Shown: positions 31,862-34,800 of the stretch, one piece after another
Layout of the letters: every line of letters begins with the position of its first letter
How positions within the stretch are numbered: the stretch's first letter is position 1
Origin: Phallusia mammillata
Taxonomy: Eukaryota
Assembly (NCBI GenBank): GCA_965637545.1
Contig: OZ281497.1
Coordinates: forward strand, 14,818,001 to 14,882,000
Reading direction: 5' to 3'
Length of the DNA stretch: 64,000 nt
Program-made: the position numbers

Positions 31862-34800
31862 TAACCTAGTATATGTGTACTGTTATTTGGCTGACACTAA
31901 TTTGCTAACGCTGAGACATGGACCGAGATTTATGAGACGCAACTGCGCTAGGTTGAAAACAAAAATTGTTCAAATAATGAAAAGGTGAACTTTTGTATGT
32001 GGTTGATTTAAACAAGTCAAAACGTCTATAAAGCGAAATATATTTATGCGACCAAAGTCAGTTCTGTGGCCAAATAAAGGCCTGGTTCACCATTGCACAT
32101 AAATATCTCAGTTTCTCATCACGAAAACAAAAGAAAAAACATACTAACCTTTTGCTCGCAAATTTGAATACAAGTTTATCTGTCACGAACATGGCCATTA
32201 AATGTCTACTGGACTTCGTCCCTCTTTTGAAAGTGTCCCTTGTGTTTTTGCATTCATTTCTCTCGTCTGGATCAACTTCAACTTTAACCGGTAACTTGCA
32301 TGACAACCTTGATTGTCTCCGCTTGCCTTCGTGTTGCGCCTTTGTAAAACCCTTAGAGTAAAAGACTTTTCGGTTTCTTCATCTACCAAAACCGCGACGT
32401 CGCATCTCCGCGGAAGCAAAGAACGCTCGCATTCTGAATCACGTTCATCCGTTCGTGGTTCGAATCTCACCAAAGCCAACCCTGAAGGCGACCGTTCTTT
32501 TAAAGCCCCCATAAGCCCACTGAAGAAATCCCTTGCTCCTAGCCATAGCGACACATGCTTGTCCAACTATAGCGGCAACGAAGACGACGTAGAATTGTTA
32601 TCCAGTGTGGTTGACTGCTTTGCAAATCTGCGTGGCGCTTATAGTCTCCAAGCTGATCTTGACATCTTGACACGTTCGCTTGGATCCGACGAGGAAAGAA
32701 ATTGTTTAAACTGGCTCGAGGAAGACTTGCCTTCGCTACCGCACGACCAGTGTGTTGTTGTTACTTGCATTGCAAGATGCTGGCTGTTGTGCTTGAAACT
32801 GTTTGTACATGAGTGTTGGATGTTATTTTTAGGGATATACTGTTAACATTCGGTCTTGATATTTTTATTTTTTGGCTGGTTTTGAGAACAGGTGACAATT
32901 AAGTTTAAACAACCATTTAAGTACTGGGCCCTGAGGGTTTTATACTTAAGCGTGAATACTCTAAAATCCCTATAAAAAATCTATACGAATCACCCATTAA
33001 AATTTATTGTTGTGCATGCAAAGTCATGATCAAAAACTTTGTAACGCTTCTGTTATAATTTACTTCTTCATACATGAAAAAAGTCAATTGTGTAAACAAC
33101 AAAAACTATTTTATTTTGTCAGGGTGAAGGAACTTGCTGTGGACGACGGAGCTGACGAACCTTTCAAGAAGCGACCGGCTGTTGGTGGACCCTTGGAACG
33201 GTTGGACGAATCTCCACAACACGTTAGCATTCATTCGCCCAATAACAGCGACCTTGCGTTGATCAGCTCCATGTGTGTAAGTACTTGAAACTTAGTTTAC
33301 TTCATGAAATGATAGCAAGTTGTCACAACGACAACGGTGAACACTTCTAAACTCTATCCCAGAACTCTGTTTTCCATCGTATATCTAATTGCACTTTGCA
33401 TAAAAGCATAAAAACAACACAAAAAAGTGGATTGTTGAAACGATGACAATGAAATGTTACGCAATGAACTTGATTTCTCAGTTTTTTCTATGAAGTTTCC
33501 AAAACTGTCGCAAAGTCAAACGGTGTTTGCTTTGCTGCACTTCTAAACATAAGATCTGTTAATAAGCAGATGTTGAATGGGCAATGACATGTGTTAACAA
33601 ATCCCAATAAAGCTTACACAGGACATCCAGGAACACGCAGACACACAAACATGTTTAAGTGACAAGTGATACCTTTTCTGCACTTTTAAATTCACAGTTG
33701 AGGCTTAGCCATGTTTAGGTTACTTGTAAAGATATCATGTCGAGTTTAATATGATACCATTTTGATAAAAAAGTCTAGCAATTTAAAGTAATTTGACTAG
33801 CGATTTGAAGATCCAAAAATCACAAGAAAAAATGTCTTGAAGGTTAAATATATACACTGGGACCAATATTTCAGTACTTCGCTTTTTTATGCCGCCATAA
33901 TAGCTCCAATGCTATTTTAAACCTTAATGTGAGATATAGTCATTGCTCACGGAAAGACTAATTTGGAATTTGGTGATATACCTAAAAACACGAAAGTGTA
34001 ATGGTGTTGGTGTATGCAAATTCTATAATTACACACTAAAATATCTGCTGAATGGAAATATTAAATCTATAGCTAACACCATTAAAAAAGTATTGAACTT
34101 GCCCATCACTTCTGCAGGAGAACGAATTGTCACGTGAGATGTATGAGGTGCATCAAACTGTCACCAGTCTACAAGAAATTGAAGAGGAAACCGTTGAATG
34201 TCACCGCAACTTTCTCCAAGGGGTAAGTCGTTTTAACTACGCCCGAACCGCCCTTTTCTACAAAACCACATCGCTGATTGATGATACCGCATTAGAATTT
34301 GTTTTTGACTACATCTGTTGTGGAAAATGACTCTTTTGAAACGAGTTTTGCCTAATATAGGGCGTCACCTGGTGGCTTAGGATTTGGTCGCAAAGTGTAA
34401 AATGGTAACGATTTGTCAGATTGTCGCAAACTAGTCGGGTCAGATGTCCCAACTGTTGCTAATTTGTGTTGAACGCTGTCTTTTGGCACACCAAGAACTG
34501 TCGAGATGTTTGCTGTATTCTCCCCACAATAGAATGACCTCGTTTGAAAACTCACACCACCGCACCCAAAACCTCAGGTTACTCTAATTCAAACACAAGG
34601 CGTGGCATGGCGTGATGAGAGAAACTATTAGATGCATTGTTACGTCATAAGATGCCTCAGTTTCAATGCACTATGCAAGTTAATTTGTGGCACAGATATT
34701 GGTCAAATCATTTCGAAATTAACCTGCTACAATTGCCTGCTGATTCTGTATGATTTTTAAACTCGTTTTCCATCTATGTTTGAAAACTGTGGGATTGTTT

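What the first reader, a model, noticed from the sequence alone, without database searches (positions are those of the whole stretch)
32357..32846. Hidden KIF2 alternative exon that duplicates the motor's last helix start (RVKDF versus RVKEL)
Within the intron after YADR, an exon starts in the same phase and restarts the motif as RVKDFSVS, then runs Ser/Arg-rich and acidic. A GTGTGT donor, the same hexamer used by TESK exon 7 in this window, makes it a 131-aa in-frame cassette. Read-through instead gives a truncated isoform without the dimerising tail. From memory, vertebrate KIF2A has a roughly 38-aa cassette at this junction beginning RVKEFGIS. If so, this would be a chordate-ancestral splice event with a much longer insert here.
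Basis: partly seen in the sequence, partly recalled or inferred. Interest (0 to 1): 0.65.

Follow-up and report, generated by a model that had tools for sequence, protein, structure and literature searches.

The report
Conserved alternative exon in ascidian Kif2
An optional extra coding exon lies inside an intron of the sea squirt Phallusia's Kif2 gene, which encodes a motor that shortens microtubules; vertebrates and lancelets insert an optional segment at the same spot, and related sea squirts already have this exon annotated, so it is real but of a known kind.

Summary
The window is the Phallusia mammillata Kif2 (kinesin-13) locus. A named 725-aa Phallusia protein maps at 100% onto 17 exons and skips the exon in question.

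Intron 13 (31861-33122, phase 2) holds an in-phase acceptor at 32357 and a 393-nt open exon that begins VKDF. Its best in-frame donor is CA|GTGTGT at 32749/32750. The read-through stop is at 32844-32846.

The exon is coding and conserved:
- Ciona intestinalis KIF2A isoform X2 carries a 134-aa counterpart as a cassette.
- Clavelina lepadiformis isoform X2 carries it as a terminal, read-through exon.
- Three unnamed ORFs share an invariant-length 44-aa core.

Vertebrates, including lamprey, insert VKEFGI... (27-44 aa) at the same protein junction. Amphioxus inserts VKEYGC... (34-38 aa) there. The listed echinoderm, hemichordate and protostome isoforms have no insert. Beyond the first ten residues, tunicate and vertebrate inserts do not align better than shuffled sequences.

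I saw no RNA data, so usage in Phallusia, and cassette versus terminal mode, remain inferred. Verdict: a real, regulated alternative exon, a new member of a known kind. Interest is moderate.

The parts
31682..31860 (+). Constitutive Kif2 exon 13 (ECIRAMSQ...NTLRYAD, plus the first two bases of the R codon). It forms the C-terminal end of the motor domain.
   Evidence: Exact match to residues 504-563 of the named Phallusia mammillata protein P0022. It matches the last residues of crystallised KIF2C/KIF2A motor constructs.
31861..33122 (+). Intron 13, phase 2, GT..AG. It holds the alternative exon.
   Evidence: donor cag|GTAACC, acceptor ...TTTTGTCAG|ggt.
32330..32356 (+). Weak acceptor region with AG at 32355-32356.
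   Evidence: It scores -1.3 bits, against 3.7 to 13.5 for the 16 constitutive acceptors. The matrix was trained on those 16 sites. It is the only in-phase AG after the upstream stop.
32357..32749 (+). Alternative coding exon, 393 nt = 131 codons (R)VKDFSVSS...LPHD(Q).
   Evidence: Translated homologues: Ciona X2 P0003 (E 7.4e-12) and P0002 (E 7e-19); P0006, P0007 and P0011; tblastn.
32424..32444 (+). Conserved basic-serine motif RSHSESR (R-x-x-S-E-S/T-R in 5 of 6 tunicate sequences). A candidate phosphorylation site (inferred).
   Evidence: Alignment.
32538..32669 (+). 44-aa conserved core PSHSDTCLSNYSGNEDDVELLSSVVDCFANLRGAYSLQADLDIL.
   Evidence: The length is the same (44 aa, no indels) in 5 of 6 sequences. 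Pairwise identity is 23-37 of 44. One search lists 19 invariant columns.
32580..32675 (+). Predicted helix, cassette residues 75-106. Low confidence.
   Evidence: AlphaFold2 on alignment A1: the only secondary-structure element, pLDDT about 64-66, whole-model mean 54.3. The full-length Ciona model shows two helices here, at pLDDT below 50.
32750..32755 (+). Candidate donor GTGTGT (CA|GTGTGT). Using it makes the exon an in-frame cassette.
   Evidence: Best of 9 in-frame GT sites (2.5 bits; the others are -0.5 or lower), but below all 16 constitutive donors (4.5-10.9). The end of the Ciona cassette aligns within about 2 residues.
32750..32846 (+). Read-through extension (31 codons, CVVVTC...GIYC) and stop TAA at 32844-32846. 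This is the alternative terminal-exon mode.
   Evidence: Clavelina isoform X2 (P0035) is annotated in this mode. The tails are not conserved in length.
32750..32879 (+). GU/U-rich stretch directly downstream of the candidate donor. A candidate intronic splicing enhancer (inferred).
   Evidence: Highest T fraction (0.46), TGT count (11) and G+T fraction (0.72) of the 17 donor-downstream stretches compared.
32996..33001 (+). ATTAAA, the only poly(A)-signal-like hexamer between the exon and exon 14.
   Evidence: Function not shown.
33123..33276 (+). Constitutive exon 14, (R)VKELAVDDGADEPF...ISSMC. The start of the C-terminal tail.
   Evidence: Exact match to P0022 residues 563-614.

Best explanation
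This is a genuine, evolutionarily conserved alternative coding exon of the Phallusia mammillata Kif2 (kinesin-13, microtubule depolymerase) gene.

**Position and products.** It sits in the phase-2 intron that splits the arginine codon near the end of the motor domain's last helix.
- Skipping gives the published 725-aa protein.
- Inclusion through a weak acceptor (32357) and a weak donor (32749|GTGTGT) would insert 131 residues between the motor and the C-terminal tail, which mediates dimerisation in MCAK. The insert's first residues, VKDF, replace VKEL, so the helix end is kept.

**What the insert contains.**
- A disordered Ser/Arg/Lys-rich stretch with a conserved RxxSESR motif.
- An ascidian-specific 44-aa core that probably forms one or two helices.

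**Likely regulation and role (inferred).**
- Weak splice sites plus a GU/U-rich stretch just downstream make it a regulated, probably tissue-specific exon. Its positional counterpart, vertebrate KIF2A exon 18, is neuron-enriched and ELAV-promoted.
- The insert would add a phospho-regulated linker and a partner-binding or self-binding helix at the motor-tail hinge.

**Alternative mode.** If the donor is not used, the same exon ends the protein 31 codons later and yields a tail-less form.

**Shown:** the ORF, the splice-site geometry and the conservation. **Inferred:** expression in Phallusia, the regulators and the biochemical effect.
For: **Locus identity.** All 725 residues of the named Phallusia mammillata protein map exactly onto 17 exons. 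All 16 introns are GT-AG.

**Exon geometry and chance.**
- Phase and frame are as described.
- The ORF is 177 codons; 2 of 1000 shuffles reach that length. G+C is 0.49 against 0.35.

**Conservation.**
- Ciona intestinalis KIF2A isoform X2 holds a 134-aa insert between R570 and V705 that aligns with this exon: 38% identity over 92% of the query.
- Clavelina lepadiformis isoform X2 holds it too: tblastn 45% identity, E 6.6e-20.
- Unnamed ORFs P0002, P0007 and P0011 also hold it; P0006 is identical in sequence to part of Clavelina P0035.
- The 44-aa core has no indels in 5 of 6 sequences.

**Splice sites.** Both are weak. The downstream stretch is the most GU/U-rich of the 17 compared.

**Same junction elsewhere.** Of 211 stored proteins with the junction motif, 121 have a vertebrate-type insert, 9 an amphioxus-type insert and 4 a tunicate-type insert.

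**Literature.** Mouse exon 18 is 37 aa, Ser-rich and nElavl-promoted (passages). The matching exon is used preferentially in human induced neurons (passages).
Against: - No transcript data for Phallusia could be consulted. The only named Phallusia protein skips the exon.
- None of the 16 constitutive Kif2 donors is GTGTGT.
- The Clavelina annotation shows the exon as terminal, not as a cassette, so the cassette mode is not universal.
- The Ciona and Clavelina isoforms are NCBI model names. I could not see what evidence supports them.
- Structure predictions are of low confidence: mean pLDDT 54.3 and 56.2.
- No known domain or look-alike explains the core.
Confidence: 0.75

Rival explanations
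1. In Phallusia the exon is used mainly as an alternative last exon. The donor at 32749 is ignored, translation stops at 32844-32846, and the transcript is polyadenylated within the intron. The product is a motor-plus-insert protein without the C-terminal tail. This may coexist with the cassette mode.
For: - Clavelina lepadiformis KIF2A isoform X2 (P0035, 751 aa) ends inside the read-through of its counterpart exon.
- The candidate donor is weaker than every constitutive donor.
- An ATTAAA lies 150 nt after the stop.
Against: - Ciona isoform X2 is a cassette whose end aligns within about 2 residues of 32749.
- Read-through tails differ in length (11-31 aa) and look like translated GT/T-rich intron.
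- There is only one poly(A)-like hexamer, and it is not the canonical form.
Confidence: 0.3
2. The ascidian exon and the vertebrate and amphioxus inserts arose independently in the same intron. Possible routes are duplication of the 5' end of exon 14 or exonisation. Any exon used there would need to begin VKE plus a hydrophobic residue to complete the motor's last helix. On this reading the event is convergent, not chordate-ancestral.
For: - Beyond the first 10 residues there is no similarity above shuffled controls. With hhalign, 172 of 200 shuffles reach the observed score. With local alignment, 291 of 300 shuffles (vertebrates) and 273 of 300 (amphioxus) do.
- Lengths differ about 3.5-fold.
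- The 44-aa core was found only in tunicate-type sequences.
Against: - The same junction is used in all three chordate subphyla, including lamprey.
- All inserts have an aromatic residue (F/Y) at position 4, where the constitutive exon has L. This is followed by small, aliphatic and Ser/Thr residues. hhalign aligns the first 10 columns at P 0.022.
- No insert appears in the listed isoforms of 4 named ambulacrarians or in the listed molluscs, arthropods, a priapulid and a nematode. This fits a single origin on the chordate stem.
Confidence: 0.3
3. The ORF is a chance open frame or a decayed pseudo-exon with no function, or it belongs to an antisense gene nested in the intron.
For: - Antisense ORFs of 122 and 73 aa overlap it.
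- 2 of 1000 shuffles reach the ORF length, so length alone is not overwhelming.
Against: - The plus-strand translation is conserved in five other tunicate-type proteins, two of them named KIF2A isoforms that carry it in the same place.
- The invariant-length core is 52-84% identical between pairs.
Confidence: 0.03

Closest known systems
Vertebrate KIF2A exon 18 cassette (mouse numbering; called exon 17 in the human long-read paper)
   Same: - Inserted at the same protein junction, between ..RYA(N/D)R and VKEL.
- Begins VKEF and is Ser-rich.
- Optional: isoforms with and without it occur in the same species.
- Neuron-enriched, and its inclusion is promoted by nElavl in mouse (passages, passages).
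   Different: - It is 27-44 aa against 131 aa here.
- The body does not align above chance.
- It lacks the ascidian RxxSESR motif and the 44-aa core.
- Regulation in ascidians is unknown.
Ciona intestinalis 'kinesin-like protein KIF2A isoform X2' (NCBI name, P0003, 877 aa)
   Same: - A 134-aa insert at the same junction, starting VKDF.
- The same RxxSESR motif and 44-aa core.
- Used as an in-frame cassette that rejoins VKELALDD.
   Different: - Only 38% identical overall.
- The linker between motif and core is longer, and the segment after the core is shorter.
Clavelina lepadiformis 'kinesin-like protein KIF2A isoform X2' (NCBI name, P0035, 751 aa; fragment P0006)
   Same: The same exon with VKEFSVY start, RAHSESR motif and the core (33 of 44 identical to the window).
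   Different: Annotated as a terminal exon. The protein ends in a hydrophobic read-through tail and lacks the C-terminal tail.
Amphioxus KIF2A isoforms with VKEYGC.. insert (Branchiostoma lanceolatum, B. belcheri and the hybrids listed)
   Same: The same junction, an optional insert of 34-38 aa and an aromatic residue at position 4.
   Different: Short. It shares an LSP-x-Y motif with vertebrates rather than the ascidian core. There is no similarity to the ascidian body above chance.

Membership tests
Kinesin-13 (KIF2/MCAK) gene | Internal kinesin motor domain with the kinesin-13 C-terminal motor end (..[18 protein letters not shown]). | tested here: met
   The window's exons equal the named Phallusia mammillata Kif2 protein at 100%. 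Exon 13 matches KIF2C/KIF2A/Klp10A structures at E 3e-30 to 5e-28. Pfam Kinesin scores 5.8e-99 in the Ciona orthologue.
Ascidian long Kif2 alternative exon (as in Ciona X2 and Clavelina X2) | Located directly after ..RYADR and starting VK(D/E)F. | tested here: met
Ascidian long Kif2 alternative exon (as in Ciona X2 and Clavelina X2) | R-x-x-S-E-S/T-R motif and the 44-aa core PSHSD(T/S)CL..DLDIL. | tested here: met
   The core is 28/44 identical to Ciona and 33/44 to Clavelina.
Ascidian long Kif2 alternative exon (as in Ciona X2 and Clavelina X2) | Actually spliced into mRNA in this species. | not testable with these tools
   No transcript data are available. The one named Phallusia protein skips it.
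Vertebrate KIF2A exon-18-type cassette | Optional insert between the motor end (..RYA(N/D)R) and VKEL. | tested here: met
Vertebrate KIF2A exon-18-type cassette | Same intron and phase at the DNA level in vertebrates and amphioxus. | not testable with these tools
   No eukaryotic genome collection is on hand. Indirect support only: every insert's last residue (R, K, E, M, Q, L) fits a codon ending in G, as a phase-2 junction onto G|GTGAAG would need.
Vertebrate KIF2A exon-18-type cassette | Sequence similarity at the start of the insert (VKEFGISPSD). | tested here: inconclusive
   hhalign aligns 10 columns, P 0.022, probability 2.1%. The first three or four residues are constrained by the helix anyway.
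Vertebrate KIF2A exon-18-type cassette | Sequence similarity of the insert body (..SRSDLSP(S/T)YEYDDF..). | tested here: not met
   observed scores are not above shuffled controls. An 'SHSD...Y..DD' resemblance seen by eye is therefore only a lead.
Vertebrate KIF2A exon-18-type cassette | Neuron-enriched inclusion that depends on ELAV-type factors. | not testable with these tools
   Only a GU/U-rich stretch downstream of the donor is seen.

The most novel reading that the evidence does not exclude
The exon marks a chordate-ancestral splicing switch at the hinge between the kinesin-13 motor and its regulatory tail. It has been kept for over 500 million years in cephalochordates, tunicates and vertebrates. 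Ascidians enlarged it into a self-contained module: a phospho-motif plus a 44-aa helical core. The module can be used in two ways. As a cassette it re-tunes the interplay between tail and motor. As a terminal exon it makes a tail-less depolymerase whose partner binding or self-association is supplied by the insert itself.
Probability: 0.3. Interest if true: 0.6.

Novelty: new member of a known kind. Interest (0 to 1): 0.4.

Why it matters
Kif2 drives unequal cleavage in Phallusia embryos (Costache et al. 2017, PMC5640700, passages seen). All tools in that work were built on one gene model. In the passages I searched, that paper does not mention splice isoforms.

A second isoform with 131 extra residues at the motor-tail hinge, or a tail-less form, could behave differently in localisation, dimerisation and regulation. 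It is worth testing in this model.

On the evolutionary side, the finding places the neuron-regulated vertebrate KIF2A cassette in a chordate-wide frame: the same junction is used in amphioxus, lamprey and ascidians. Two full-text searches of the held library found no paper describing this. The ascidian 44-aa core is a compact, strongly conserved element with no known family. It is a defined target for binding studies.

Tried and rejected
1. **Homology of insert bodies.** Profile-profile comparison (hhalign) and local alignment with shuffled controls found no signal beyond the first 10 residues. An 'S(H/R)SD..LS..Y..DD' resemblance seen by eye is not supported.
2. **Known domains and look-alikes.**
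   - Pfam gives only a sub-threshold chance match, VWA_3_C at E 0.13.
   - The ESM Atlas gave no usable hit.
   - Rfam found nothing in the window.
3. **Tail-anchor idea.** I asked whether the hydrophobic read-through tail could anchor Kif2 to cortical ER. I rejected this for two reasons.
   - The tails differ in length, contain charged residues and look like translated GT/T-rich intron.
   - The N-terminal 72 aa of Kif2 suffice for localisation to the CAB, the cortical ER domain of ascidian embryos (passages).
4. **Structure.** Both AlphaFold2 models are of low confidence, at mean pLDDT 54.3 and 56.2. No fold search was made.
5. **Helix amphipathicity.** Hydrophobic moments are only 0.14-0.41, which is not informative.
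6. **Self-association of the core.** A homodimer job could not be queued. The queue was full, and the re-sent job was held back. No result exists.
7. **Source names of unnamed ORFs.** Their species stay unknown.
8. **Repeat or duplication.** The exon has no other copy in the window.
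Full report
**What the window is.**
- A 725-aa protein named by UniProt as Phallusia mammillata kinesin-like protein (P0022, A0A6F9DG17_9ASCI) maps residue for residue onto 17 plus-strand exons between 23740 and 37316.
- All 16 introns are GT-AG.
- The window is therefore the Kif2 (kinesin-13) locus of this ascidian or of something nearly identical. Nothing in it was taken for human, and it holds no N.
The alternative exon and exon 13 were searched on their own. Full-length comparisons used database proteins.

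**The observation.**
- Exon 13 ends at 31860 with ..LRYAD and two bases of an arginine codon.
- Intron 13 runs from 31861 to 33122. Exon 14 starts at 33123 with the third base of that codon and VKELAVDD.
- Inside the intron, AG at 32355-32356 is followed by an 'a' that completes AGA (R). The frame then reads VKDFSVSSS... for 131 codons, up to CA|GTGTGT at 32749/32750.
- Read-through adds 31 codons and ends at TAA 32844-32846.
- The stop-to-stop ORF is 177 codons. Only 2 of 1000 dinucleotide-preserving shuffles of the intron reach this length.
- G+C is 0.49 in the exon against 0.35 in the rest of the intron. The segment has no second copy in the window.
- The peptide has S 25, R 8, K 7, D 11 and E 9 of 131. 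The front half is basic and the back half acidic.

**It is coding and conserved.**
- *Word-indexed search for longer proteins.* This found 2 proteins at E <= 0.01 among 352 candidates. One is the NCBI-named 'kinesin-like protein KIF2A isoform X2 [Ciona intestinalis]' (P0003, 877 aa; 38% identity over 92% of the query). The other is an unnamed 232-aa ORF, P0002.
- *Exhaustive search of cluster representatives.* This gave 11 proteins at E <= 0.001. Four are short single-stretch ORFs: P0006, P0002, P0007 and P0011. Seven are long Ser-rich proteins matched in 5-22 stretches, which I take as compositional.
- *Ciona X2.* The insert lies between R570 and V705, i.e. ..RYADR|VKDFHGN...PHIEL|VKELALDD.
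- *Clavelina.* A second search brought in Clavelina lepadiformis isoform X2 (P0035, 751 aa). It carries the same exon but ends in its read-through. P0006 is identical in sequence to part of P0035.
- *Shared features of the six tunicate-type sequences.* They share a VK(D/E/G)F start, an R-x-x-S-E-S/T-R motif (5 of 6), and a 44-residue core, PSHSDTCLS.YSG..DD....S..VD.FANLRGAYSLQADLDIL. The core has no indels in 5 of 6, and pairwise identity is 23-37 of 44.
- *No known family.* Pfam and the ESM Atlas do not explain the core.

**Where it sits in the protein.**
- The Pfam kinesin domain of Ciona X2 ends at ..RVKD (residues 246-573).
- Exon 13 matches the last residues of crystallised KIF2C and KIF2A motor constructs, e.g. 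319-378 of 387 and 357-416 of 420.
- In a low-confidence AlphaFold2 model of Ciona X2, the helix spans 557-577, with pLDDT below 50 there. The junction then falls about two thirds of the way along the last motor helix.
- So the repeated VK(D/E)(F/L) is the end of that helix, not its start. Whichever exon follows exon 13 must supply it.
- The cassette alone is predicted as disordered over residues 1-74, with one helix at 75-106 (mean pLDDT 54.3).

**Splicing signals.**
- The 16 constitutive donors are GTA.. (14), GTGAGA (1) and GTCTGT (1). None is GTGTGT.
- I scored sites with a small matrix trained on those same sites. The candidate donor scores 2.5 bits against 4.5-10.9. The acceptor scores -1.3 against 3.7-13.5.
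- Even so, 32749 is the best of the 9 in-frame GT sites; the others score -0.5 or lower.
- The 130 nt after it have the highest T fraction (0.46), TGT count (11) and G+T fraction (0.72) of all 17 donor-downstream stretches compared.
- One ATTAAA lies at 32996.
- Weak sites plus a GU/U-rich flank are what a regulated exon looks like. Naming ELAV, CELF or TIA-type factors is inference by analogy with mouse.
- The end of the Ciona cassette (..FPHIEL) aligns within about two residues of ..LPHDQ here. This supports the donor position.
A kinase exon (LEPKARPTFSKIV.., 50898-50997) is followed by GTGTGT, with an in-frame stop right after it.

**The same junction in other chordates.**
- Two searches listed 120 kinesin-13 proteins each. 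The first listed the best 120 of 7999 hits. The second, centred on the amphioxus insert, listed the best 120 of 4704.
- Of 226 stored proteins, 211 have the junction motif. The table below gives their classes.

| Class at the junction | Proteins |
|---|---|
| VKEFGI.. (vertebrate type) | 121 |
| VKEYGC.. (amphioxus type) | 9 |
| Tunicate type | 4 |
| Straight to VKEL (no insert) | 68 |
| Other | 9 |

- The vertebrate type covers lamprey, sharks, teleosts, Xenopus, birds and rodents.
- Insert lengths are 27-44 aa in vertebrates and 34-38 aa in amphioxus.
- Forms with and without the insert occur in the same species, e.g. Salmo trutta and Branchiostoma lanceolatum.
- Passages of Akkaya et al. 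(bioRxiv 10.1101/2020.05.07.081216) state that mouse exon 18 encodes 37 Ser-rich residues and that nElavl proteins promote its inclusion.
- Passages of PMC12308531 report preferential use of the including transcript in human induced neurons.
- The exon's sequence is shown only in a figure of the preprint, which is not held, and bioRxiv supplements are closed. I therefore took its position from the database proteins.
- The listed isoforms of four named ambulacrarians show no insert: Amphiura filiformis X2, Patiria miniata, Apostichopus japonicus X2 and Glandiceps talaboti. Nor do the listed molluscs, arthropods, Priapulus or Toxocara.
- Other isoforms of those species were not listed, so absence outside chordates is only weakly supported.

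**Limits of the homology claim.**
- hhalign between the vertebrate and tunicate insert alignments aligns only the first 10 columns (P 0.022).
- With those columns removed, the observed score (6.6) is reached by 172 of 200 column shuffles.
- Mean best local-alignment scores are reached by 291 of 300 shuffles for 24 vertebrate inserts, and by 273 of 300 for 3 amphioxus inserts.
- The case for one chordate-ancestral event therefore rests on three things: position, the optional character of the insert, and the shared aromatic residue at position 4 with a small/aliphatic/Ser pattern after it. It does not rest on the insert body.
- I put common origin at roughly two in three.

**Mechanism, with shown and inferred parts kept apart.**
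- *Shown:* an in-phase, conserved coding exon with weak splice sites. Two annotated modes of use exist in relatives: cassette in Ciona and terminal in Clavelina.
- *Inferred, regulation:* inclusion is regulated, possibly in neural tissue.
- *Inferred, cassette form:* about 856 aa by arithmetic. It places a flexible phospho-regulated linker and a conserved helix between the motor and the C-terminal tail. That tail mediates dimerisation in MCAK (as cited in passages of PMC5640700). From my recollection of the MCAK literature, not seen here, the tail also folds back on the motor.
- *Inferred, read-through form:* it would lack that tail.
- Costache et al. (PMC5640700, passages only) built all their Phallusia Kif2 tools on one gene model, phmamm.g00002556. 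They found the N-terminal 72 aa sufficient for CAB localisation. The word 'splice' does not occur in that text, and 'isoform' occurs only in its reference list.

**Novelty.**
- The exon is not in the named Phallusia protein.
- Two full-text searches found no paper on a KIF2A alternative exon in amphioxus or Ciona. Searches returned 1 and 2 papers, all unrelated.
- However, NCBI models of Ciona and Clavelina already contain the exon, and the vertebrate cassette is well known.
- It is a new member of a known kind, with an ascidian-specific enlargement.

**What stayed unchecked.**
- Transcript evidence.
- Orthologous genomic DNA.
- Self-association of the core, because complex prediction could never be queued.

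Noticed in passing
window 24399-24440 (+), in Kif2 intron 3: This looks like a second skipped exon, a 42-nt micro-exon. Its acceptor is tttttttag| and its donor aag|GTTAAG, both phase 0. It encodes ETRSYRSFRKVKAK. It matches the 15-16-aa inserts of Clavelina isoform X2 (EKESYRSFRKSKGTK) and Ciona isoform X3 (QRHSREYRSFRKSSHK). The named Phallusia protein lacks it.
   Followed up: partly
database proteins P0066, P0075 etc. versus P0068, P0074 (teleosts): The vertebrate insert itself comes in two lengths..SPTYE|VKEL (27-28 aa) and ..SPTYEYDDF..SR|VKEL (38 aa). In Silurus asotus/S. meridionalis both lengths occur in the same genus. This suggests alternative donors within the cassette.
   Followed up: no
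Pfam kinase matches reach E 1.1e-11. Its subdomain-XI exon ends cgag|GTGTGTGA with an in-frame TGA just after. GTGTGT therefore probably serves as a donor there.
   Followed up: partly
window 27526-27667 and 27684-27825 (+), Kif2 intron 5; A/G-rich run near 27784-28026: A tandem direct repeat of 142 nt at 91% identity with 158-nt spacing. Next to it lies a purine-rich tract that translates as a K/R/E run. This is probably repeat or transposon debris in the intron.
   Followed up: no
window 2-6494 (-): Five ORFs have sub-threshold DOMON-domain matches (E 5.5e-07 to 4.5e-05). This looks like a multi-DOMON gene on the minus strand.
   Followed up: no
window 12959-13870 (+): An RNA polymerase subunit Rpb5 gene. 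The C-terminal domain matches at E 1.1e-32 and the N-terminal domain weakly.
   Followed up: no
window 40036-40338 (-): An ORF starting MGSICGK.., followed by an acidic Ala/Glu/Gln-rich sequence with no Pfam match. The start looks like an N-myristoylation/palmitoylation motif (my reading, not tested).
   Followed up: no
window 56006-57160 (+), 59129-60322 (-), 62780-63484 (-): Long ORFs of 385, 398 and 235 aa in the G+C-richer 3' part of the window, with no Pfam family at E <= 0.001.
   Followed up: no
read-through tails of the window (32750-32843), P0035 and P0002: The stretches translated just after the exon are V/C/L/F-rich in all cases. Phallusia and Clavelina share a 'VVVT'. This hints at a conserved GT-rich element after the donor rather than conserved coding sequence.
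   Followed up: partly
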